Both the position numbers and the translations under genes were made by a program. From IMG/VR virus record IMGVR_UViG_3300005096_000055, positions 1 to 58,902 of that record: a stretch of DNA of 58,902 nucleotides, one strand, 5' to 3'. This DNA is from a virus (lineage: Duplodnaviria > Caudoviricetes). The notes below the pieces were generated by a model. That model did not search any database and was not told the origin of the DNA. It saw only the letters and a list, made by a program, of their open reading frames with translations. This document shows, piece after piece, positions 2,264 to 25,236 of the stretch (its first letter is position 1; every line of letters starts with the position of its first letter).

Positions 2264-2659
2264 TCAGCCTTCCCACCCGATTCGGTGGACTACACGGTCG
2301 TTGAGGTAGACCTTCGTCTTGTCAAGGTACCTTGAGAGAGCTTCGTTCACCTCATCTTGGGTGAAGTCAGCATTGCCGTCCTTCCACAACACGAAGACGT
2401 TTGCACCTTGGTGCGGTTGGACGGTGACACTCTCGACCTCAGTTCCAACCATCTTGATGTCGATGGTTGCCTTCAACGTCCATTCACTCGGCGCTTCTTC
2501 GGGACTTCGGATCTCGAGCCCAACGTCAGTGATGACCTGAGCTACTTCCTCTATGGTCCCTGCATCCCACTCGATCCCGTCAAGGATTCCGTGGATGCGC
2601 TCGATGGCTCTTGCATAGTCCAAGGCGGATCCCAAGGACGTATCTTCTGCTTCTGCCAT
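2264..2659 (-). CDS. Hypothetical protein
   Basis: AAAGGGGTAAG RBS before MAEAED. Confidence 0.75.
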   Translation of the reverse strand: MAEAEDTSLGSALDYARAIERIHGILDGIEWDAGTIEEVAQVITDVGLEIRSPEEAPSEWTLKATIDIKMVGTEVESVTVQPHQGANVFVLWKDGNADFTQDEVNEALSRYLDKTKVYLNDRVVHRIGWEG

Positions 2660-2758
2660 TTGCTTACCCCTTTCGTTCTGGTAACGCTTGTCGCTACCCC
2701 ACAACAAACCTACCCGAATGGATAGGTTTGTTGGTGGCTAGGTACAAGCTCTCGCTCG

Positions 2759-2968
2759 TTACAGGTGCAGCACCTTCCCTGCAACCTTCTTGCCGATCAC
2801 GATGAACTCGCTTTCGGGTCCAGGTGGCATTGGAGATGCGTACCCGCAATCGTCGCACTGGAGTTTCTCGATCCTCTCGATGGCGCCGAAGGCCGTCAGA
2901 ACCACGAGCTCACTGAGGAACCCAAGTTCTTCTGCCTTGGCGTAATCGATCGTGTAGAGATCATTCAT
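2759..2968 (-). CDS. Hypothetical protein
   Basis: 69 aa, overlaps upstream ORF end. Confidence 0.6.
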   Translation of the reverse strand: MNDLYTIDYAKAEELGFLSELVVLTAFGAIERIEKLQCDDCGYASPMPPGPESEFIVIGKKVAGKVLHL

Positions 2969-3293
2969 GGGCGTTCGCTATTACTTCGAGTATCGAAGCG
3001 TTGCAGCGAAGCTCGCCGTCTTTGGCGTAGGTTCGTGCTCGCGCTCGGTACTCTGGATCGAGCATCACCACGAACTTCGAACGCTCTTTGCCCACGATGA
3101 CACCCTGCATTCCTACAAGGTACTTCGGGCGGACGTTTGCGAGTCGCACGATCGTGCCTGGCTTGAGGGAAAGCGCTAGTCGGTCCGTGAGGACCCCCTG
3201 TCGCTTCTTCAGTGCCGTGTAGATCGTGTCGAAGTCATCGTCAACCGCTCCGTTGATGATGGCATCGTAGACCTGCTGTGCATTTGCACTCAT
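2961..3293 (-). CDS. Hypothetical protein, possible KOW/SH3-like fold
   Basis: LKPGTIVRL..RPKYLVGMQGVIVG..FVVML; conserved RBS. Confidence 0.7.
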   Translation of the reverse strand: MSANAQQVYDAIINGAVDDDFDTIYTALKKRQGVLTDRLALSLKPGTIVRLANVRPKYLVGMQGVIVGKERSKFVVMLDPEYRARARTYAKDGELRCNASILEVIANAHE

Positions 3294-3384
3294 TTGCTTA
3301 CCCCTTTCTGGTAGCTCGTTGCTACCCCACGACTCTCGAGGGGTTCTCGAGAGTCGGTGGCTAGTTACGAGCCTGTTTGGCTAG

Positions 3385-3678
3385 TTACGAGCGGCCTGTT
3401 GGAACCGCCGGCGAGATGATCCGAGCCTTCCACCTCTTGTGGCGGAACTCAGCTACCTCTTGCATGGATGGTTCGTTGATGCTCCAGGACAACTGCGCCC
3501 TTTCGGTATCTCCGTTGAGCTCGATGCCACATGATGGGCACCGTGCCCATGCATAGAAGCCTTCGGAGATCTCAAGTTCATATTCGCCAGGTGCCACCAT
3601 ATGGGTGGTGCCTTCTACGAAGCTGTACTCGTAGCAGTTCTCGCAGATCTGGTACATGCCTTGGATTCCCTTAGGCAT
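3385..3678 (-). CDS. Zn-ribbon protein
   Basis: CENC...CPSCG; start taken at MPKGIQ. Confidence 0.65.
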   Translation of the reverse strand: MPKGIQGMYQICENCYEYSFVEGTTHMVAPGEYELEISEGFYAWARCPSCGIELNGDTERAQLSWSINEPSMQEVAEFRHKRWKARIISPAVPTGRS

Positions 3679-3925
3679 TGTCAAGCCAATCGAGCCAGCT
3701 CTGGAAGAACTTTTCGACTGCCTCGATTGCCATGTCCTCTCGCACCTTGTCGCGACCCCACGAGTACTCTCCCGTGTCTTCGCGGTCAGGTTGCCAGATG
3801 TTTTCGTCAGTCTCGACGAACATCCACGGCGCTTCTGAGAAGTCCACCTGTGGTTCATCGACGAGTTCTCCAGTTTCCGTGTCGATCGACACGGCTACCG
3901 GTAGGTACACGACTACTTTCGCCAT
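3671..3925 (-). CDS. Hypothetical acidic protein
   Basis: Conserved RBS before MAKVVV. Confidence 0.75.
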   Translation of the reverse strand: MAKVVVYLPVAVSIDTETGELVDEPQVDFSEAPWMFVETDENIWQPDREDTGEYSWGRDKVREDMAIEAVEKFFQSWLDWLDNA

Positions 3926-13394: not shown

Positions 13395-13467
13395 CAGTGT
13401 GTAGCTCAGTTGGGAGAGCGCTCGGTTTGGAGCCGAGGGGTCGTAGGTTCAAGTCCTACCACACTGA
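13395..13467 (+). tRNA. tRNA-Pro(TGG)
   Basis: Canonical cloverleaf; ctcgg-TTTGGAG-ccgag. Confidence 0.92.
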
Positions 13468-13564
13468 CGGGGCCTGCCGAGGGAAAATAACTCGGGTGGC
13501 GAGGCGAAAGCGCGTAAGTAACTGAGCTAACAGCGGCGGAAGGATCCGCCAGGTCCCAGATTTT

Positions 13565-13636
13565 GAAGCCATAGCTGAGGGGCATAGCAGCGGACTTTTA
13601 ATCCGCAGTACGTAGGTTCGACTCCTACTGGCTTCA
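13565..13636 (+). tRNA. tRNA-Lys(TTT)
   Basis: Cloverleaf; gcgga-CTTTTAA-tccgc. Confidence 0.92.
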
Positions 13637-13710
13637 CGGTAGGGGGTGCGCGCCGTTTAAGCTGGCGGGTTCATAACCGTTGTCGGAAGGCGGCCCCCGT
13701 ACCAACGCCC

Positions 13711-13782
13711 ACCAGGCTCTTCTAACTGGCAAGATGCTAGGTCCTGACCCTGGCGATCGAGGTTCGAGTCCTTGGCCCGGTG
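13711..13782 (+). tRNA. tRNA-Gln(CTG), C at position 33
   Basis: ctagg-TCCTGAC-cctgg, GGTTCGAGTCC T arm, one acceptor mismatch. Confidence 0.75.
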
Positions 13783-13787
13783 CTCAT

Positions 13788-13861
13788 TCCGGGGTCGGCT
13801 AATGGCAAGCCGCGGGTCCTTGGAGCCCGCTATCAAGGTTCGAACCCTTGCCCCGGAGCCA
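13788..13861 (+). tRNA. tRNA-Gln(TTG), C at position 33, encoded CCA
   Basis: tccgggg/ccccgga acceptor, cgggt-CCTTGGA-gcccg, 3' GCCA. Confidence 0.85.
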
Positions 13862-18615: not shown

Positions 18616-20136
18616 TCATGGCCATTGCCCTGTCGCTGTGAAGCTGAGGTCCCGGATCCTTGGGTCGAAGATCGTGACAACGCAGCCATCGGTTGGTGGA
18701 AGCAGCTCCATCCTCACGATTCTCAGCATCCTGAGTGCCTCCTCATTGTCGGGGCGTTTGCCAAAAGTGGCCTCGAGGCGCTTGAGCGCTTCATCAAGGC
18801 CATTGCGGAACCACTCAAAGGCTTCAACGGACGGTATGTTCTTGAGATCGATGTCGCTCATGGCCTTGGGCCTACCCACTGCGTTGGATCATTCCTGTTG
18901 CTGATGGCACGCCGAGTGTCTCCACGGACTGCATCGCGCATCTTGCCAAGGTCCCATGCCAGCCGGCGAATGAATGTAGCAAGGTCGCGAGAAGTGGCCA
19001 CGGACTCGAGGTCTGTTCCGTCCGCTTCACACATATCGGCATCGTGCTCAAGCAGCATGGCAACGTGATCGAGCTTGAAGATCCTTCCTCTTCCAGGAAC
19101 GAGGTTCTTGACTCGGTTGGTCTGTTGCTCGAGCCGGTTGACCTTCCGTGTCAGGTACCTCACTCGCCGCCTAAGTTCATCGATCTCCTCGTCACAGTTG
19201 ATCACTTCCACTTTGGTCGCTTCATCCATGTCCTTGCTCACTTTCTCGTATCCCATACTGCGTACACGCTGACCAAACAGCCGCGCTCCTTGTCTTGATA
19301 CACACCGGTCACGAGCGAGTCGCACTCACTCTCACCGATGATCGCCTGTATGCCATCCTGTATATGCGCATCGAACCGGCTCAGTGACTTCGTGATGTTC
19401 TCGAACCAGTACCTGCTCTTGCCGAACTCATCCCATGGCATCTCGATGACACGATCGACCTTCCTGCCGGTCCTGAGCTCATTGATGCCGATATCGGTGA
19501 TGATCATCGCTCGCGTCTTCTTGATCACCATCACTTCACCACAGCAATCGTCAATGCCACAATCCCAACCACTGACACCGCATAGATCACAGCCACGATC
19601 AGCTTGTGCTTCATTGGTTCACTCAGCATGGAAATGGCTCGGCTGTGGGTTGGTTGGCTTCTCGGTTGGGTTGTCCCATGCCCACCCACAGACGATGCAG
19701 CGGTAGCGAGCTGGGATCCATTGATCGTCGGTGATCCATGTGGCTTGTGAGTCGCGCACAGCGTCATGGCCACCCTTGCAGGGATCATCGAGTGCTTTGG
19801 GCAGCTTGATTGGCTTGGTATTCGTCATAGCTCTGGATCCGCTGCTACGTCCTCGAGCTCAGCCGGAAGTGCACCATCTTCCCAGGTTGTTCCCCATACG
19901 GTCGTCCATCTTGTGACTGTTCGCGACTGGACTGTCATAGGTAAGCAGTTTCTCCGTGTATATGCGTTGCGTGCCTTGTCCCATTGCGCTGCTGCTCTTG
20001 TTGCAACATCGAAGTTCACCTTCGGGTAGATGTGCCTTGGGCCAGAGTGGTTGCCGGCACAGATGATGCGATACTCGTCTTCTTTGCCAACAGTTGTGTT
20101 GGCACTGGAGACGATAACCCTTTCGCTTTCAGCCAT
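18616..20136 (-). CDS. Small hypothetical ORFs (18616-18879, 18858-~19256, 19238-19534, 19619-19828, 19825-20136)
   Basis: Coupled chain directly downstream of rtcB. Confidence 0.55.
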
Positions 20137-20137
20137 T

Positions 20138-21778
20138 TCATGCCCCCTTGAAGTTGAGCACCTGATGGAGCTCAGTCACGATCTCAACCAAGTCAGCCTG
20201 ATCTGCCATCACGTCCTCGATGTCCTTGTACGAATCGGGGTGCTCATCCAGAAGCTTCTTCCCCATAGAGCTGTTCCACACCTTCCCATCCATTCTCGCA
20301 GTGAGATCCTCAACGCTCAGTTCCTTTCTCGCTCTCGTCCTTGACATCCGTCTCCCAGCACCATGGGCGCTCGAGTCGAACGATGCCTTGTTGCCGAGCC
20401 CCTTGACGATGTAGGAGTTGGTTCCCATCGATCCTGGGATGACTCCGAAGTCACCAACACGGGCACGGATCGCACCCTTGCGGGTCACCCATATGTCGCT
20501 GCGATCATGGCTGCCATCACATACTTGTATGGTATCATTCTGTGGTGACACCAAAGAAGAAACACCCAAGAAGGACAATTCCTGCAATATGCCCGATCTG
20601 TCAATCAGACTTTCGAGCGCGCCAGGTTGGCGGTAAACAGACCGTAAAAACGTGCTCGTCAAGCTGTGGGCGGAAGTTGGCGTGGCGGAGTGGTTTCTAT
20701 GGCAACTACAAGGGCGGTCGGCTTCTCGTAAATGGCTACGTTCTGATTCTTCAACCAGATCATCCAAGGGTGAACAACTCAGGATATGTGCGAGAGCACT
20801 TGCTAGTAATGGAAGGGATTCTTGGTCGCCCCGTTTTGAAGTCAGAACAAGTCCACCACAAGAATGGAAACCGATCTGACAACTCTCCAGAAAACCTCGA
20901 ACTCTGGTCAAAATCTCATCCTTCTGGGGTGAGGCACTCGGACTGGCATTGTCCAGGGTGTCGCTGTCAAGACAAGTAAGGCAATGTGACTCTTTCGCGG
21001 TGTAATTGTGGTGACAATTGATGCGGCGCTTCTCATATGACTGGTTGGGCCAACCAACAACGTAGGCAAGATCCTTCAGCACAGCATCCATCATCGTTTC
21101 ACGATTCGCCAGTGCATAGTCCTGTGCCCAATGCAGGTCCGTCATGTACTCTGCGAATTCACGCGTGCCCTCCACGAAGTAAGCAAGGTCAGGGTCATCG
21201 AGCGTGATGAAGTACCTTTCCATCAGCCCCTTCGCTGTCTTGATGTGGCGCATCGCCAACTTGTTCCCAACACCACGAGAACCTGAGTGCAGCACCACCC
21301 ACACCGTTCCTACTTGGTCGAGGCACACTTCAACGAAGTGATTGCCACTCCCGAGTGTCCCCATCTGTGCCGCGGCACGATCAGCCAGTCCGAGCTTCTG
21401 CACATTCTCGTTGTCAGCAATCAACTCATCTGCATACCCACGATTGCTGTTGTGGCCCCTCCCAACACCAGCCGGGATCGATCTCGAGATCGAGTGGTGG
21501 AGTGGCGTCAAGTCATCTGGCAGGTCCGATGCGTTGAGTGACGTTTCGACGGCGATCATGCCACAGCCAATATCCACACCAACAGCAGCCGGGATGATGG
21601 CGCCAACAGTCGGAATCACTGACCCGATCGTTGCACCCATCCCGATATGGGCATCGGGCATCAGTGCCACATGGTTGACGATGAACGGCAACTGAGCTGC
21701 TCTTGCAGCCTGGTCCAGCGTCCCATCTTCAACGTCGCTACCCCAAGACAGCAGCTTGGTTCTCATCATCCGTGGCAT
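20138..21778 (-). CDS. rtcB: RtcB RNA ligase interrupted by a ~159-codon in-frame insertion
   Basis: MPDAHIG, VGVDIGCG, GTLGSGNHF, HSGSRG, HHNY, RKGA, IPGSMG, SAHGAGR, DEHPDSYK, terminal KG. Confidence 0.95.
   Translation of the reverse strand: MPRMMRTKLLSWGSDVEDGTLDQAARAAQLPFIVNHVALMPDAHIGMGATIGSVIPTVGAIIPAAVGVDIGCGMIAVETSLNASDLPDDLTPLHHSISRSIPAGVGRGHNSNRGYADELIADNENVQKLGLADRAAAQMGTLGSGNHFVEVCLDQVGTVWVVLHSGSRGVGNKLAMRHIKTAKGLMERYFITLDDPDLAYFVEGTREFAEYMTDLHWAQDYALANRETMMDAVLKDLAYVVGWPNQSYEKRRINCHHNYTAKESHCLTCLDSDTLDNASPSASPQKDEILTRVRGFLESCQIGFHSCGGLVLTSKRGDQESLPLLASALAHILSCSPLDDLVEESERSHLREADRPCSCHRNHSATPTSAHSLTSTFLRSVYRQPGALESLIDRSGILQELSFLGVSSLVSPQNDTIQVCDGSHDRSDIWVTRKGAIRARVGDFGVIPGSMGTNSYIVKGLGNKASFDSSAHGAGRRMSRTRARKELSVEDLTARMDGKVWNSSMGKKLLDEHPDSYKDIEDVMADQADLVEIVTELHQVLNFKGA
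20530..20538 (+). promoter_or_regulatory. Extended -10 promoter for leaderless HNH transcript
   Basis: TGgTATCAT with GTG 6 nt downstream at 20545. Confidence 0.55.
20542..20979 (+). CDS. HNH homing endonuclease with N-terminal Zn finger, antisense within rtcB
   Basis: CPICQ..TCSSSC; NYKGG..GYV..HP..GYVREHLLVMEGILGR..EQVHHKNGNRSDNSPENLEL. Confidence 0.93.
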   Translation: MVTPKKKHPRRTIPAICPICQSDFRARQVGGKQTVKTCSSSCGRKLAWRSGFYGNYKGGRLLVNGYVLILQPDHPRVNNSGYVREHLLVMEGILGRPVLKSEQVHHKNGNRSDNSPENLELWSKSHPSGVRHSDWHCPGCRCQDK

Positions 21779-22011
21779 TACTTACCCATCCTTCTTGTCG
21801 CTCTGTCGATCATCTCCTTGTAGTACTTGGTGCGCACATCGAAGGCCTCGCCCGCCTGAGCGAGCATGAAGTACAGGATGATGAGCAGCAGCATGACCTT
21901 CTGGTACGCCTCAACATTGCTCTTGACGACTGGCCCTACGAGCGTCAGCACCACGAGGCTCGAGAGTGCGAGCCACACAAAGCTCAGTCGCATCGATCTT
22001 CGGCTTGTCAT
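21778..22011 (-). CDS. Small membrane protein
   Basis: Two hydrophobic segments; TAATG coupling to rtcB. Confidence 0.7.
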   Translation of the reverse strand: MTSRRSMRLSFVWLALSSLVVLTLVGPVVKSNVEAYQKVMLLLIILYFMLAQAGEAFDVRTKYYKEMIDRATRRMGK

Positions 22012-22087
22012 TGAACTGCCCCTTCACTTGTCGGTTACTTGTCGGTCAAATCCGTACACGTATCTGTACCCTGCCACAAACACCGAC

Positions 22088-22117
22088 TAGACACAACCCC
22101 CTATTTCCCCCTACACT
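22088..22117 (+). promoter_or_regulatory. Leaderless promoter for terS
   Basis: TAGACA-18 nt-TACACT with ATG 7 nt downstream. Confidence 0.55.
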
Positions 22118-22124
22118 GTCAACC

Positions 22125-22871
22125 ATGGCTGAATGGAAAACCAAGGACATCGTTGAACACGACCGAGAGATAACGCGCACGATGACCGTGCTCGAGTACC
22201 TAGACCAAACTGATGATGTCCCATGGGAGAAGATCCCTCACGAATCGATGAAGGCGTACCGAGCGTTCTGCACCTACCGTGATGCAGGCCGGCGCCGCTC
22301 GGTCACCTATCTCCGCGGCCGAGGCGTAGCAGTTGCCAACATGTGGGTCCAGGAGTACAAGTGGACCTTACGCGCTCGCCTCTTCGATGAATACACTCTT
22401 GCTTCTGAGCAGATCGAGCAGCACAAGCTCAACCAGGAGATGAAGCTCAAGCACGCCGAGCAAGCAGCCTCAGCACTCGATGGTCTCATGGCTCCGTTCA
22501 TTGAATTCCAGCGCCGATCGGAACGGGACCCAGCTCAACTTGCCGACGATATGGCTGCCCTCGATGGCAAGAAGCTTCTCTCAACAATGCAGGCATCTGC
22601 TAGAGTCTTACAACCCATCATGTCTGCAGAGCGCCTCGCTCGAGACATGCCAACCGAAATGGTAGAAACGCATGTCCAAGGCCAGATCACCGTTCAAGAT
22701 TCACCGGAGGCCTTAGCTAGTGTCCTCGGAGTCCTTGCTGAAACAGGTATCCTCGCTTCCCTCGTCGGAACGGGCCCGATTATTGACATTGTTGACCCCA
22801 CGGACGAACAAGTGGGTCAAGATGAGCCCACACCCGAAGCAAGCCGCCTTCCTGCTAGCACCTCAGCGTGA
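22125..22871 (+). CDS. terS: Terminase small subunit
   Basis: PWEKIPHESMKAYRAFCTYRD..RS..W...W..RA..FD; directly upstream of TerL. Confidence 0.75.
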   Translation: MAEWKTKDIVEHDREITRTMTVLEYLDQTDDVPWEKIPHESMKAYRAFCTYRDAGRRRSVTYLRGRGVAVANMWVQEYKWTLRARLFDEYTLASEQIEQHKLNQEMKLKHAEQAASALDGLMAPFIEFQRRSERDPAQLADDMAALDGKKLLSTMQASARVLQPIMSAERLARDMPTEMVETHVQGQITVQDSPEALASVLGVLAETGILASLVGTGPIIDIVDPTDEQVGQDEPTPEASRLPASTSA

Positions 22872-25236
22872 AGTCCTCTTTGGTGGAGCTGCAGGTGGGG
22901 GCAAGATGCTGGAAGTATCTACCAGTGTCCCTACCCCAAGCGGGTTCAGGGAACTAGGGTCGATTCATCCTGGTGATCTTGTCTATGGGGTGGACGGAAA
23001 AGCGCATCTCGTTGAGTGGGAATCGCAGGTTCAGTTCGTAGGTGGTTACACAATCACGTTCGACGATGGTTCGACAGTCACGGCAAACGATGACCATTTG
23101 TGGCTTACCTATGATGTGAAGGAGCTTGTGGCACTCACGAAGCGCACGCCAGAGTACAGGGCGAGGCGACGTGCATCGAGGAAGTCTCGAGCGAAGGCGA
23201 ACCCGCAGAAGGGGCTTGCCCATCAACGTCGACGCATAGAGCTCAACAAGACCGACAACCCGTCGAAACCGCAACCACCACCAACTGGCACGGCTCGCAC
23301 AACACGAGAGATCGTTGACACACTCACAGTACGTAACGGCCGCGCCAATCATGCCATACCTGTAGCCCAATCACTGCAACTACCAGAGAAGAGCCTCCTC
23401 ATCGATCCATACGTACTCGGTGCATGGCTAGGCGATGGGTTCACGGCTAATGGTCGCATCTGCGGCATGGATGATGCAGTCTTCGAGAATGTCAACGTCA
23501 CGTACGACCCTGGATCAACAATCTATGACCCCGATAAGGGTGGCGGTGGGTACCGGGTTGCCAACTACCCACAACTCAAGTCCGACCTCGATTCCCTTGG
23601 CCTCATCGGCAACAAGCATGTCCCACATGACTACCTATGGTCATCCGAATCTCAACGCCTTGCACTTCTCCAGGGGCTCCTCGATACCGATGGCAACGTC
23701 AGCAAGGCGTCAGTCGAGTTCACGAATACCAACCAGGATCTCACTGAAGGCGTAGCTCACCTGGCGCGCTCACTTGGGATGAAGGTGACTGTGCGGACAA
23801 GAGATGCAAAGTGCAATGGCAAGAACTATGGAACTGTCTGGACGGTGAAGTTCGCTGCCAACCGTATCGTGTTCAGGATCCCACGCAAGGCCGAAGCCCA
23901 ATCGATCTCGACACGCAGAACCTCGAACTTCCGCTACATCAAGTCCGTCGAGCGCATTAAACCGACTGAGATGAAGTGCCTCAAGGTCTCTTCGCCCGAC
24001 TCACTCTTCCTCGTCACCGAGAACTTCATCCCGACCCACAACTCCGAAGCTGCCCTTGCCGCCTTTGCTCAATACGCCGATGTCCCTTTCTACAAGGGCA
24101 TCATCTTCCGCCGCACCTTCACTGACCTCAAGCTTCCTGGCGCCCTCATGGATCGATCTCACGAATGGTGGGACAACACCGAGGCCAAGTGGAAGGCTCA
24201 GGACCATGCTTGGCAGTTCCCGTCAGGCGCTGTCCTTCAGTTCGGCTTCCTCGAGCGCGAGGCCGACAAGCTCAAGTACCAGGGCGCCAACTTCCACTAC
24301 ATCATGTTCGATGAGCTCACTCAGTTCACCGAGTCCCAATACACCTACCTCTTCTCTCGCCTCCGCAAGCTCACCAAGGAAGAACTCGAGAAGTTCGGGA
24401 TCAGCTTCGATATCCCACTCCGCATGCGATCAGCATCGAACCCTGGTGGGCCCGGTCACGAATGGGTCAAGAAGCGCTTCATCGGCACTCCCGAGGAACC
24501 AGTCAATCACCCCAACCGCATCTTCATCTCGTCGCGCCTTGAGGACAACCCCTCGCTCGACCAGGCCGAATACGAACTCTCACTCTCCGAACTCGATCCC
24601 ATCACTCGCGCCCAACTCCGGCTTGGTGACTGGACGGCCGACGCTCGAGGTGGCATGTTCAAGAAGGTTTGGTTCAACCTCAAAGAGGACAGACCTCGCC
24701 ACTTCACCTACATCTGTCGGTTCTGGGATCTCGCTGCAACCGAGGCAAAGATCGGTGAGGATCCTGACTACACGGTCGGCTTGCTCTACGGCCTCGACGA
24801 GGACGGTGAGACATGGATCCTCGACATCCAGCGCCTCCGTGAGTCCTCAGCTACCGTTGAACGCACCATCAAGGCAACGGCACTCGCTGACGGCCCTGAT
24901 GTCGAGATCTGGATGGAACAGGAACCGGGAGCATCGGGCAAGGCACTCATCTCTCACTACCGACGCAACATCTTGGCTGGCTACACCTTCCGGCGCTATC
25001 TCCCATCAGGCAAGAAGGATGTGCGCGCTCGTCCAGTCTCTGGCGCTGCAGAGGAAGGAACGGTGAATGTGATCTATGGTGGATGGAACCTTGCTTTCTT
25101 CGATGAGGTATCTAACTATCCCGATTCACTCCACGATGACCAGATCGATGCACTGTCTGGTGCCCATGATGTGACGCAAAAGGTGCAGAGGTTGACTGAT
25201 ACGAAGAAGCAAGCGAAACAGACATCGGGGTATTGA
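22720..25236 (+). CDS. terL: Terminase large subunit with intein
   Basis: Walker A GGAAGGGK/S, Walker B IMFDELTQF, ASNPGG, FWDLA, EQEPG, HDDQIDA. Confidence 0.95.
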   Translation: MSSESLLKQVSSLPSSERARLLTLLTPRTNKWVKMSPHPKQAAFLLAPQREVLFGGAAGGGKMLEVSTSVPTPSGFRELGSIHPGDLVYGVDGKAHLVEWESQVQFVGGYTITFDDGSTVTANDDHLWLTYDVKELVALTKRTPEYRARRRASRKSRAKANPQKGLAHQRRRIELNKTDNPSKPQPPPTGTARTTREIVDTLTVRNGRANHAIPVAQSLQLPEKSLLIDPYVLGAWLGDGFTANGRICGMDDAVFENVNVTYDPGSTIYDPDKGGGGYRVANYPQLKSDLDSLGLIGNKHVPHDYLWSSESQRLALLQGLLDTDGNVSKASVEFTNTNQDLTEGVAHLARSLGMKVTVRTRDAKCNGKNYGTVWTVKFAANRIVFRIPRKAEAQSISTRRTSNFRYIKSVERIKPTEMKCLKVSSPDSLFLVTENFIPTHNSEAALAAFAQYADVPFYKGIIFRRTFTDLKLPGALMDRSHEWWDNTEAKWKAQDHAWQFPSGAVLQFGFLEREADKLKYQGANFHYIMFDELTQFTESQYTYLFSRLRKLTKEELEKFGISFDIPLRMRSASNPGGPGHEWVKKRFIGTPEEPVNHPNRIFISSRLEDNPSLDQAEYELSLSELDPITRAQLRLGDWTADARGGMFKKVWFNLKEDRPRHFTYICRFWDLAATEAKIGEDPDYTVGLLYGLDEDGETWILDIQRLRESSATVERTIKATALADGPDVEIWMEQEPGASGKALISHYRRNILAGYTFRRYLPSGKKDVRARPVSGAAEEGTVNVIYGGWNLAFFDEVSNYPDSLHDDQIDALSGAHDVTQKVQRLTDTKKQAKQTSGY
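22906..24042 (+). mobile_element. Class 3 intein (379 aa) with LAGLIDADG endonuclease, in TerL Walker A
   Basis: Starts with Met after GGGK, ends PTHN before Ser; HLW, MKCL, THN; LGAWLGDG and LQGLLDTDG. Confidence 0.92.

What the first reader, a model, noticed from the sequence alone, without database searches (positions are those of the whole stretch)
20507..20983. Antisense HNH endonuclease hidden in a stop-free, in-frame, non-intein insertion in rtcB
Seen: RtcB motifs HHNYTAKESH and DRSDIWVTRKGA are separated by 159 extra codons with no stop. Almost the whole insert (20542/20545-20979) is an intact HNH gene on the opposite strand, with its own extended -10. The rtcB-frame translation lacks the intein C-terminal HN plus Cys/Ser/Thr, and only ~40 nt lie outside the HNH gene, leaving no room for a separate group I core. 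Established: homing endonucleases normally sit in introns or inteins in the sense orientation, or stand free. Inference: a distinct kind of selfish element that avoids destroying its host gene by keeping the antisense frame open. A rough 3/64-per-codon estimate puts chance absence of stops near 1e-3.
Basis: partly seen in the sequence, partly recalled or inferred. Interest (0 to 1): 0.95.

Follow-up and report, generated by a model that had tools for sequence, protein, structure and literature searches.

The report
Antisense hidden HNH cassette inside rtcB
A small selfish nuclease gene sits backwards inside a phage RNA-ligase gene without breaking that gene's reading frame, a new antisense version of the recently described "hidden HNH" insertion elements.

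Summary
rtcB (20138-21778, minus strand, 546 aa) carries an exact 477-nt (159-codon) stop-free insert at 20507-20983. An intact HNH_3 gene (20542-20979, plus strand) with its own promoter-like site fills 438 of those 477 nt. Chance absence of stops in that antisense frame is 5e-4 to 1.2e-3.

None of 91 related rtcB loci has the insert. Two metagenome contigs bridge the site lacking exactly 477 nt. A second, distant RtcB (P0002, about 54% identical outside the insert) has a homologous open insert at the same codon. The RtcB tree forces at least two gains or losses. I found no intein or intron signal.

Best reading: a homing HNH cassette that RtcB tolerates as a translated, poorly ordered excursion at a beta-hairpin tip.

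It is not a wholly new kind. The "ShiLan domain" (PMC11855218) is an in-frame, stop-free, non-intein insert hiding an HNH in another sense frame, and this HNH is homologous to it. Antisense endonucleases inside inteins are also reported (bioRxiv 10.1101/2025.01.02.630785). What is new is the antisense orientation without an intein, and the host gene. Expression, RtcB activity and nuclease activity are untested.

The parts
20138..21778 (-). rtcB open reading frame, 546 aa, read through the insert
   Evidence: ORF listing. Pfam RtcB E 2.7e-110 in two stretches. The AF2 model is closest to RtcB structures, 8odp_A E 1e-28, TMq 0.63. All 43 columns invariant in the 30-sequence alignment are by definition kept in the window's protein.
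20984..21778 (-). rtcB part upstream of the insert (residues 1-265, ends ..NCHHNYTAKESH)
   Evidence: Alignments A1 and A2. pLDDT is mostly above 90. dN/dS against L047 is 0.065.
20507..20983 (+). 477-nt insert (159 rtcB codons, residues 266-424). The boundary can slide by up to 3 nt because CAT is repeated.
   Evidence: Clean gap in 4 of 4 and 29 of 29 insert-free homologues. Two contigs of run X1 bridge the site with a net 477 nt missing. GC is 49.9% against 55.4% for the genome. No Pfam family at E<=10 in the rtcB frame. pLDDT 27-66.
20542..20979 (+). HNH_3 endonuclease gene, 145 aa (GTG 20542, or GTG 20545; TAA 20977-20979), with an N-terminal CxxC..CxxxC zinc ribbon and a C-terminal HCPGCRC motif
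   Evidence: Pfam HNH_3 E 1.5e-9. PHROG 20891 E 1e-31. 92 homologues found, the best 71% identical. All invariant columns of two alignments are kept, including C17, H105, H106 and N118. AF2 mean pLDDT is 84.3. The best structural match is I-HmuI, Z 5.4, rmsd 3.2 over 66 residues, which is weak.
20511..20538 (+). promoter-like site inside the insert (CTGCCA, 16-nt spacer, TATCAT, TG before the -10). It ends 4 nt before GTG 20542 and 7 nt before GTG 20545, which suggests a leaderless mRNA.
   Evidence: Consensus scan: 2 sites found in 20000-22100 against 1.0 +/- 1.0 in shuffles, so this is not significant on its own. No Shine-Dalgarno-like run lies upstream. Function is inferred.
20138..20506 (-). 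rtcB part downstream of the insert (residues 425-546, starts DRSDIWVTRKGA and holds the SAHGAGR histidine motif)
   Evidence: pLDDT 94-98. dN/dS against L047 is 0.127.

Best explanation
The 477-nt insert is a minimal mobile homing-endonuclease cassette. It consists of an HNH_3 gene with its own promoter, inserted backwards into the codons for the tip of a conserved beta hairpin of RtcB, between the metal-binding HHNY motif and the TRKGA strand.

Because the gene lies antisense, its start and stop codons are not stops for rtcB. Codon choice in the HNH gene avoids every antisense stop, and the length is a multiple of three. RtcB is therefore still made as one 546-aa chain, with a 159-residue, poorly ordered excursion that is not spliced out.

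The HNH is made from a short, probably leaderless antisense transcript. It cuts or nicks insert-free rtcB alleles of co-infecting relatives, and recombinational repair copies the cassette in (homing).

Shown here: the anatomy; the excess openness of the host frame; presence/absence polymorphism at exactly this site; a second, diverged instance; an intact HNH; homology to the ShiLan hidden HNH.

Inferred: HNH expression and activity, homing, lack of splicing, and retained RtcB function.
For: Anatomy.

Selection on the host frame: 0 stops where 5.3-6.0 are expected; P 0.0005-0.00115; 0 of 317 control windows open in that antisense offset.

Insert-free state:
- None of the 91 rtcB loci has a match span over 1,244 nt, against 1,641 nt for the window. 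This includes the closest relatives, L047/L048 at 83% and L049 at 77%.
- 29 of 29 aligned homologues have no residue at the site.
- Two contigs of run X1 join across the site, skipping 499 and 496 nt with 22 and 19 other letters between. That is a net 477 nt in both cases, and the letters between encode an ordinary hairpin.

Second instance:
- P0002 is a 550-aa RtcB. Its residues 267-424 match the window's insert (E 5.5e-12, 38% identity). It is the only related hit among 1.84 billion representatives.
- The whole proteins are 49% identical (270 of 550).
- Its insert could encode, in the same antisense offset, a protein matching the window's HNH at up to 113 of 144 positions. In 200 shuffles the mean was 74 and the maximum 83. 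No stop is forced.

Disjunct distribution: the window sits in a starred clade with insert-free L047 and L049, and P0002 in another starred clade with insert-free L054, L055, L128 and L129. At least 2 changes are forced, and 0 of 200 bootstrap trees give one origin.

No splicing signal:
- 0 Pfam families at E<=10 for the insert in the rtcB frame.
- No Rfam family in the insert at E<=10.
- Junction pairing is -22.6 against -21.8 +/- 3.4 in shuffles, and the fold z-score is +0.6.

Tolerance: AF2 keeps the RtcB core above pLDDT 90 on both sides. The insert leaves between strands 258-266 and 426-434.

Both rtcB halves show low dN/dS against L047, 0.065 and 0.127.

Kinship with a published element of the same logic: tblastn of the HNH hits the ShiLan-domain region of DNA methyltransferase genes in the 14 listed records of phages ShiLan, Mantra, Totinger, Starcevich, Filuzino, Bipolar, Pollywog, MISSy, Murica and OwlsT2W, at 34-36% identity and E 1e-10 to 2e-7.

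The same lifestyle is common in this HNH family. Of 34 related viral loci, 7 lie inside a much longer host frame that stays open. L029, L030, L036, L038 and L040 are in a sense frame of DNA methylase genes, although L029 itself was not scanned with Pfam. L045 is in a UDG-family gene. L032 is antisense in a TerL intein.
Against: - No RNA or protein data exist. No RNA run holds the stretch, so translation through the insert, HNH expression and RtcB activity are all untested.
- The DNA of P0002 could not be fetched, so whether its HNH is intact is unknown. One search gives only an upper bound.
- The insert lies 8 residues after a metal-binding histidine motif, and the usual hairpin glycine is replaced (H-x-G-x-x-V/L-W becomes H[insert]DRSDIW). 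This could impair the enzyme.
- dS is saturated, and low dN/dS does not date the insertion. A recent insertion into a now-dead gene would look similar.
- The promoter match alone is at chance level.
- The window is a metagenome assembly, and no run holds its own insert.
- The first residue of the insert is Cys in both instances, which an unrecognised splicing chemistry could use.
- The structural match of the HNH model is weak: no Foldseek hit at E<=0.001, and Z 5.4 to I-HmuI.
Confidence: 0.7

Rival explanations
1. The insert is removed by a splicing process that current models do not recognise. This could be a degenerate or novel protein-splicing domain co-encoded antisense to the HNH, or an unconventional intron. 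Mature RtcB would then be about 387 aa.
For: - The insert starts with Cys in both instances (H|CLTC).
- 159 aa is the size of a mini-intein (size range recalled, not tested).
- The site is in a conserved active-site region, as for inteins and introns.
- rtcB is a known intein host: Corynebacterium phage Lederberg has a classical intein at DIGC|..GN|C.
- A relative of this HNH lies antisense inside a real intein in L032.
Against: - The insert ends ..SH (P0002..TH) and is followed by Asp in both instances. There is no terminal Asn and no Cys/Ser/Thr at +1.
- 0 Pfam families, Hint or other, at E<=10.
- The AF2 prediction for the insert is low-confidence and mostly helical, not a beta-rich Hint fold.
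- Homologous HNH sequence covers residues 11-143 of the 145-aa ORF, leaving 39 nt outside the ORF.
- No Rfam family matches, and none of the four possible exact boundaries ends in G.
- RNA folding is no better than in shuffles.
- An intron would not need an open frame.
Confidence: 0.12
2. rtcB was inactivated by a free-standing HNH that landed in it. The open, in-frame state is luck or is very recent, and the gene is on its way to decay.
For: - Free-standing homing endonuclease genes are known to disrupt or split phage genes (recalled, for example mobE in nrdA of phage Aeh1; not checked here).
- RtcB is absent from many phages, so it may be dispensable.
- A scan of very many windows can turn up a 1-in-1000 event.
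- The hairpin glycine is lost.
Against: - P is about 1e-3 for the frame alone, and about 3e-4 with the one-in-three chance of a length divisible by three.
- A second insert at the same codon, only 38% identical in the rtcB frame, is also open over 158 residues in a 550-aa ORF.
- There are no stops, no frameshifts and no loss of any invariant RtcB residue in either half.
- The same open-frame habit recurs in 7 of 34 loci of this HNH family and in the published ShiLan elements.
Confidence: 0.13
3. Assembly artefact: the contig joins an rtcB phage with an unrelated HNH-bearing fragment.
For: - The window is a metagenome-assembled virus record.
- No public run laid here covers 20510-20964.
- The insert's GC content is 5.5 points lower than the genome's.
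Against: - An artefact would not be expected to give an exact 477-nt, in-frame insert that restores the native hairpin length.
- An independent contig of 173,437 bp from other sources encodes the same architecture at the same codon.
Confidence: 0.03

Closest known systems
ShiLan domain / 'hidden HNH' insertion element in mycobacteriophage DNA methylases (Arsenault, Gosselin & Gogarten 2025, PMC11855218; earlier PMC9957025, seen in a search listing only)
   Same: - In-frame, stop-free insertion at a conserved site of a phage gene.
- No intein motifs and no intron model.
- The HNH, with flanking zinc fingers, is encoded in another reading frame and fills almost the whole insert.
- GTG start a few nt in (18 bp there, 35 bp here); TAA within the last 4-7 nt.
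- Disjunct distribution among close relatives.
- The host-frame product is predicted to be a poorly ordered loop.
- Leaderless GTG initiation is proposed.
- The HNH proteins are homologous (34-36% identity).
   Different: - There the HNH is on the same strand, in the third sense frame, and must be translated from the host gene's own transcript. Here it is on the opposite strand with its own promoter-like site.
- The host gene is a DNA methylase there and rtcB here.
- The insert is 202 aa there and 159 aa here.
- I did not see a chance estimate for the open frame in the parts of the paper that I read.
Inteins with homing endonucleases encoded on the antisense strand or out of frame (bioRxiv 10.1101/2025.01.02.630785; passages read)
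   Same: An endonuclease ORF lies antisense within an in-frame insert whose host frame stays open. The authors propose an origin by invasion of a free-standing endonuclease gene.
   Different: - Those inserts keep intein splicing blocks, so the host protein is restored by protein splicing. The rtcB insert has none.
- In the passages I read, the antisense types are LAGLIDADG and VSR-like, and HNH is listed only as in-frame.
- L032 shows an antisense HNH in a TerL intein.
Fractured genes: split inteins with a free-standing endonuclease gene between the halves (Dassa et al. 2009, PMC2677866; abstract and passages read)
   Same: [quoted passage not shown]
   Different: There the host gene is broken into two ORFs that are rejoined by trans-splicing. 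Here there is one continuous ORF and no intein.
Antisense homing endonuclease genes in nuclear rDNA group I introns (PMC9548176; title and abstract from a search listing only)
   Same: An endonuclease gene lies antisense to the host gene.
   Different: Those are carried by self-splicing introns in rRNA genes, so no host reading frame has to be kept open.
I-HmuI, the HNH nicking homing endonuclease of Bacillus phage SPO1 (PDB 1u3e)
   Same: It is the best structural match of the HNH model (Z 5.4, rmsd 3.2, 66 residues, 21% identity). Both belong to the HNH/His-Me finger class.
   Different: I-HmuI is encoded in sense orientation inside a group I intron (recalled). The match is weak, and no activity is known for the window's protein.

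Membership tests
Hidden-HNH in-frame insertion element (ShiLan-domain type, PMC11855218) | Insertion at a conserved site of a phage gene, present or absent among close relatives (disjunct distribution) | tested here: met
   0 of 91 related rtcB loci carry it. 29 of 29 aligned homologues are empty at the site. Two contigs bridge the empty site. Two separated clades carry it.
Hidden-HNH in-frame insertion element (ShiLan-domain type, PMC11855218) | No stop codon in the host frame; length a multiple of three | tested here: met
   477 nt with 0 stops; P 0.0005-0.00115 by chance. P0002 is also open.
Hidden-HNH in-frame insertion element (ShiLan-domain type, PMC11855218) | An HNH ORF in another reading frame fills nearly the whole insert, with a GTG start near one end and a stop within the last few nt | tested here: met
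   GTG lies 35 nt in, and TAA is followed by 4 nt.
Hidden-HNH in-frame insertion element (ShiLan-domain type, PMC11855218) | HNH encoded on the same strand as the host gene (third sense frame) | tested here: not met
   The HNH is on the opposite strand, offset 1. I therefore file it as a variant, not as a plain member.
Hidden-HNH in-frame insertion element (ShiLan-domain type, PMC11855218) | No recognisable intein or intron | tested here: met
   Pfam gives 0 families at E<=10. Rfam gives no family in the insert at E<=10. RNA folding is no better than in shuffles.
Hidden-HNH in-frame insertion element (ShiLan-domain type, PMC11855218) | HNH homologous to the ShiLan hidden HNH | tested here: met
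   tblastn matches under the DNA methyltransferase genes of ShiLan, Mantra, Starcevich, Filuzino and others: 34-36% identity, E 1e-10 to 2e-7.
Intein (Hint domain, class 1-3) | N-terminal Cys, Ser or Thr | tested here: met
   The insert starts with Cys266; P0002 does the same.
Intein (Hint domain, class 1-3) | C-terminal Asn (usually His-Asn) followed by Cys, Ser or Thr | tested here: not met
   The insert ends ..GSH followed by Asp; P0002 ends ..PTH followed by Asp.
Intein (Hint domain, class 1-3) | Hint fold / splicing blocks | tested here: inconclusive
   No Pfam Hint or intein family at E<=10. The AF2 prediction for the insert has pLDDT 27-66 and is mostly helical. No dedicated fold search of the insert alone was run.
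Group I intron | Match to a covariance model, a conserved core, and a 3'-terminal G | tested here: not met
   No Rfam match at E<=10. None of the four equivalent boundaries ends in G. The fold z-score is +0.6 on the rtcB strand. A very divergent intron cannot be excluded without RNA data.
HNH_3 (PF13392) homing-type endonuclease | Profile match above the curated cut-off, with catalytic His, Asn and zinc-binding Cys kept | tested here: met
   37.8 bits against a cut-off of 24.8. C17, H105, H106, N118 and the other columns invariant in both alignments are kept.
HNH_3 (PF13392) homing-type endonuclease | Site-specific cleavage or nicking of the insert-free allele | not testable with these tools
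   Needs a purified protein and a substrate carrying the empty site.
RtcB 3'-phosphate/5'-hydroxyl RNA ligase (PF01139) | Profile match, fold and conserved active-site residues | tested here: met
   E 2.7e-110. Foldseek 8odp_A E 1e-28. 43 invariant columns are kept.
RtcB 3'-phosphate/5'-hydroxyl RNA ligase (PF01139) | Ligase activity of the insert-bearing protein | not testable with these tools
   Needs an enzyme assay.

The most novel reading that the evidence does not exclude
HNH_3 cassettes of this family have a general third way, besides introns and inteins, of colonising conserved coding sequence. They stay unspliced, but they are 'frame-neutral': a second reading frame through them is kept open by selection.

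The antisense form seen in rtcB would be the most autonomous version. It has its own promoter, its own leaderless start and its own stop, all invisible to the host frame. HNH expression is therefore uncoupled from translation of the host gene, and its transcript may also act as an antisense regulator of rtcB.

The host enzyme then carries a 159-residue passenger loop that is tolerated or even co-opted.
Probability: 0.45. Interest if true: 0.75.

Novelty: new variant of a known kind. Interest (0 to 1): 0.6.

Why it matters
Homing endonuclease genes are usually thought to survive inside essential genes only by riding on self-splicing introns or inteins. The ShiLan work proposed a third solution, an unspliced but frame-preserving insert, but it left open how the hidden HNH gets translated.

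The rtcB element answers that question in a different way. By lying antisense with its own promoter and a leaderless GTG, the nuclease needs nothing from the host gene's mRNA. Its start and stop codons are harmless to the host frame.

This report also adds three things I did not see in the parts of the papers I read:
- a quantitative test showing that the open frame is selected (P about 1e-3 here, 0 of 20,000 shuffles in L032);
- a second, diverged instance at the same codon;
- evidence that 7 of 34 loci of this HNH family live inside open host frames, in methylase, UDG-family, TerL-intein and now rtcB genes.

There are practical consequences. Gene callers will annotate only one of the two overlapping genes. 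Long "disordered inserts" in phage enzymes should be checked in all six frames. Such sites mark loops that tolerate about 160-residue insertions, which is useful for protein engineering.

Tried and rejected
- Group I, group II or other structured intron: Rfam at E<=10 over 19800-21900 gave only two chance-level snoRNA rows, at 20191-20262, outside the insert. Folding of the insert and of the two junctions was no better than in shuffles.
- A bulge-helix-bulge-like pairing of the junctions, an idea prompted by the host gene being an RNA ligase: no support.
- Intein: no Pfam family and the terminal residues are wrong.
- Terminal inverted or direct repeats of the insert: only short matches at chance level. 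One example is the 10-mer TGTGGTGACA at 20541 and 21007; by my own arithmetic about 0.18 such repeats are expected in 611 nt.
- Megablast of 19000-24000 against phage genomes: no match.
- Word-index protein search with the insert region: only the window's own protein was returned.
- Scans with the two-insert alignment A3 in genome contigs and viral contigs: no relative found.
- Scan of viral contigs with P0002: only the insert-free L128 and L129.
- Looking among 92 database HNH proteins for the antisense partner of P0002 by codon compatibility: the best was 86 of 165, which is background. The positive control scored 145 of 145.
- Scan with L032's HNH returned the same loci.
- Foldseek of the HNH model against the PDB: no match at E<=0.001.
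- Sequencing runs: no RNA holder was listed. The three DNA contig runs, all from one study, hold relatives only (shares 0.13, 0.05, 0.00). There is no cover on 20510-20964, so neither expression nor the window's own junctions could be checked.
- L013's 365-aa antisense ORF over its HNH was judged spurious. It is in offset 0, which is often open at high GC; its translation is low-complexity; and it overlaps another ORF.
Supplementary files of the two Gogarten-lab papers were not opened; they may list further hidden or antisense HNH inserts that bear on the novelty claim.
- The statement that an antisense, intein-less hidden HNH is not in print rests on searches only.
Full report
**What is there**

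The window is a complete virus record of 58,902 bp with direct terminal repeats and 55.4% GC. On the minus strand, 20138-21778 is one ORF of 546 aa. It matches Pfam RtcB at E 2.7e-110, in two separate stretches.

On the plus strand, 20542-20979 encodes 145 aa. This product matches Pfam HNH_3 above its cut-off (E 1.5e-9) and PHROG 20891, 'HNH endonuclease' (E 1e-31). It is the only HNH_3 match in the genome.

I aligned the RtcB with 4 and then 29 insert-free relatives. Both alignments give a clean gap of 159 codons between ..HHNYTAKESH and DRSDIWVTRKGA.., that is, 20507-20983. The boundary can slide by up to 3 nt because CAT is repeated. The HNH ORF fills 438 of the 477 nt. Thirty-five nt lie upstream of its GTG and 4 nt follow its TAA. 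The insert has 49.9% GC.

**Is the open frame more than chance?**

The rtcB frame is the antisense frame shifted by one base relative to the HNH codons. In this phage's other long ORFs that offset carries the most stops: 0.055 per codon, and 0 of 317 windows of 146 codons are open. For the HNH gene the expected number of stops is 5.3 by codon-order shuffling and 6.0 by synonymous resampling with the phage's codon usage. The observed number is 0. P(no stop) is 0.00115 and 0.0005 respectively, from 20,000 trials each. The other two antisense frames hold 6 and 8 stops within the ORF, or 6 and 11 over 20501-21000.

**Presence and absence**

None of the 11 viral loci or 80 metagenome loci that encode relatives has a match span longer than 1,244 nt, against 1,641 nt for the window. 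The nearest relatives, L047/L048 (83%), L049 (77%) and L050 (67%), read ..E-x-H-[Y/M]-[N/G]-K-[D/N]-[V/L]-W.. at the site.

I laid three public DNA contig runs, all from one study, on 19600-22300 at 80% likeness. Relatives cover rtcB on both sides, and nothing covers 20510-20964. Two contigs of run X1 join 20491 to 20991 and 20497 to 20994, with 22 and 19 other letters between. In both cases the net absence is exactly 477 nt, and the letters between encode an ordinary H-H-Y-G-K-D-V hairpin. The sides of these joints are short (39 and 21 letters), and the contigs come from relatives, not from the window's own population.

**A second instance**

I searched the 159-aa rtcB-frame translation of the insert against 1.84 billion representative proteins. 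Two hits came back. One is an unrelated repeat protein. The other is P0002, a 550-aa RtcB whose residues 267-424 align with the whole insert (E 5.5e-12, 38% identity). P0002 also reads ..H|CLTC.. at the start and ..TH|DVRDLWITRKGA at the end. The whole proteins are 49% identical (270 of 550). Subtracting the insert columns gives about 54% identity outside the insert; this last figure is my own arithmetic.

P0002 is a singleton cluster from one 173,437-bp contig, and I could not fetch its DNA. As a substitute I computed, from its protein sequence alone, which residues its antisense frame could encode at the same offset. They can match the window's HNH at up to 113 of 144 positions. In 200 shuffles the mean was 74 and the maximum 83; the score was 644 against 360 +/- 15. 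The H-H-K-N-G..N motif is possible, and no stop is forced. This is an upper bound, not proof of an intact gene.

In a maximum-likelihood tree of 26 RtcBs, the window groups with insert-free L047 and L049 (support 100/99). P0002 groups with insert-free L054, L055, L128 and L129 (97/90). At least two gains or losses are forced, and 0 of 200 bootstrap trees allow one origin. This is the pattern expected of a homing element.

**Not an intein, not an intron, by any test available**

- The insert in the rtcB frame matches no Pfam family even at E<=10.
- It ends in His followed by Asp, in both instances.
- In the AF2 model its pLDDT is 27-66 and it is mostly helical.
- Rfam at E<=10 finds nothing in it.
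- None of the four equivalent boundaries ends in G.
- The RNA folds no better than shuffles: z = +0.6 on the rtcB strand, and the junction duplex is -22.6 against -21.8 +/- 3.4.
- By contrast, the same DNA read in the HNH frame folds with mean pLDDT 84.3, and 92-96 across residues 61-120.
- It keeps every invariant residue of two HNH alignments.
- Its best structural match is the homing nickase I-HmuI, at Z 5.4 and rmsd 3.2 over 66 residues, which is weak. Foldseek found nothing at E<=0.001.

**Where it sits in RtcB**

AF2 with a 30-sequence alignment gives pLDDT mostly above 90 for residues 1-266 and 425-546. The insert leaves between strands 258-266 and 426-434, at the tip of a hairpin. The model's best matches are RtcB structures (8odp_A, E 1e-28).

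The site is 8 residues after the HHN metal-binding motif; that role is recalled from the P. horikoshii structure literature and was not tested here. Both halves show low dN/dS against L047, 0.065 and 0.127, with dS saturated. The glycine found at this hairpin position in at least 90% of the 30 aligned sequences is replaced in both insert-bearing alleles, which read D-R-S-D-I and D-V-R-D-L. This could be a co-conversion tract or a change that protects the site from cleavage; that is inference.

**Expression of the HNH**

The only plus-strand promoter-like site in 20000-22100 is CTGCCA, a 16-nt spacer, then TATCAT with TG upstream, at 20511-20538. It ends 4 nt before the first GTG and 7 nt before the second. 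There is no Shine-Dalgarno run. A leaderless GTG-initiated mRNA is the simplest reading. The match itself is at chance level (2 sites found, 1.0 +/- 1.0 expected), so this step is inferred.

**Comparison with what is known**

Arsenault, Gosselin and Gogarten (Genes 2025, PMC11855218; I read the abstract and sections 1, 3 and 4) describe the 'ShiLan domain'. It is a 202-aa, stop-free, in-frame insertion in mycobacteriophage DNA methylases with no intein or intron features. It hides a 195-aa HNH in the third sense frame, with a GTG 18 bp in and a TAA in the last four bases. Its distribution is disjunct, the host-frame product is predicted to loop out, and leaderless GTG initiation is proposed.

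The window's HNH is a homologue of that hidden HNH. tblastn hits lie under the DNA methyltransferase genes of ShiLan, Mantra, Totinger, Starcevich, Filuzino, Bipolar, Pollywog, MISSy, Murica and OwlsT2W, at 34-36% identity and E 1e-10 to 2e-7. In ShiLan the match is on the CDS strand, in a different frame.

[quoted passage not shown] Dassa et al. 2009 (PMC2677866; abstract and passages read) describe free-standing endonuclease genes between split-intein halves.

In six searches I found no report of an antisense HNH in an intein-less in-frame insert, and none of such an element in rtcB. Supplements were closed.

**The habit is common in this HNH family**

Of the 34 viral loci that encode relatives of the window's HNH, 7 lie inside a much longer frame that stays open across them:
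- L029, L030, L036, L038 and L040 are in a second sense frame. Pfam N6_N4 DNA methylase matches in the four of these I scanned, split into two stretches in L030, L036 and L038 and as one stretch across the insert in L040; L029 was not scanned.
- L045 is in a UDG-superfamily gene.
- L032 is antisense, at the same offset 1, inside an 871-aa TerL.

In L032 the insert is a real intein at the Walker B site: it begins C-V-A-K-G.., ends ..V-S-S-N|C, and gives weak Hint hits. Zero of 20,000 codon shuffles of its HNH ORF leave that frame open, with 9.4 stops expected.

**Verdict**

It is not a new kind of element. It is a new, antisense, intein-less variant of the hidden-HNH insertions, in a new host gene.

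Not shown: that RtcB is active with the insert, that nothing is spliced, that the HNH is expressed and cuts the empty site, and that the window's own junctions are supported by reads.

Noticed in passing
window 22720-25236 (+): The large terminase (838 aa) carries a LAGLIDADG-type intein inserted right after the P-loop GGGK. It ends ..THN followed by Ser (Pfam Hom_end E 8.5e-10, LAGLIDADG_3 E 9.2e-10). By my reading its first residue is not Cys, Ser or Thr, so it may be a class 3 intein. The class was not determined.
   Followed up: partly
L032 2030-4645 (-) and 2929-3765 (+): An HNH_3 plus HTH gene (278-codon ORF) lies antisense inside an intein at the Walker B site of a related TerL. The intein frame is open at the same offset 1, and 0 of 20,000 codon shuffles are open. 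In the preprint passages I read, antisense intein endonucleases were LAGLIDADG or VSR-like, not HNH.
   Followed up: partly
L045 2382-3593 (+): A UDG-superfamily gene (Pfam UDG E 1.4e-23, in two stretches) stays open across a same-strand, out-of-frame HNH of this family. This is a ShiLan-type hidden HNH in a host gene other than a methylase.
   Followed up: partly
L030 2057-4300, L036 2294-3979, L038 2291-4048, L040 473-1987 (all +): Metagenomic viral N6_N4 DNA methylase genes carry a same-strand out-of-frame HNH of this family. They look like further ShiLan-type elements outside cultured actinophages.
   Followed up: partly
L164 977-2827 (Cylindrospermopsis phage Cr-LKS3) and L165 1275-2162 (Gordonia phage GAL1): The annotated 'DNA methylase' of a cyanophage, and the annotated 'nucleotide kinase' of GAL1, each overlap a same-strand HNH reading frame in a different frame (open stretches of 252 and 167 codons). 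The first looks like a hidden HNH. The second may be a hidden HNH or a mis-called gene.
   Followed up: partly
L127 495-2606 (Corynebacterium phage Lederberg gp59): This RtcB carries a classical intein at the DIGC|..GN|CGM site, a different position from the window's insert. rtcB is therefore a repeated target of mobile elements.
   Followed up: partly
L092 2462-3747: An rtcB relative is split into two overlapping ORFs (2462-3172 and 3112-3747) by a frameshift. This could be a sequencing error, a pseudogene or recoding; I did not examine it.
   Followed up: no
window 20541-20550 and 21007-21016: The 10-mer TGTGGTGACA at the HNH start is repeated in the rtcB Cys-His-His codons, 24 nt outside the far end of the insert. 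By my arithmetic about 0.18 such repeats are expected in the 611 nt examined, so it is probably chance.
   Followed up: no
window 13395-13861 (+): A cluster of four tRNA genes (Pro-TGG, Lys-TTT, Gln-CTG, Gln-TTG). This fits a phage that keeps RtcB for tRNA repair; the link is inference.
   Followed up: no
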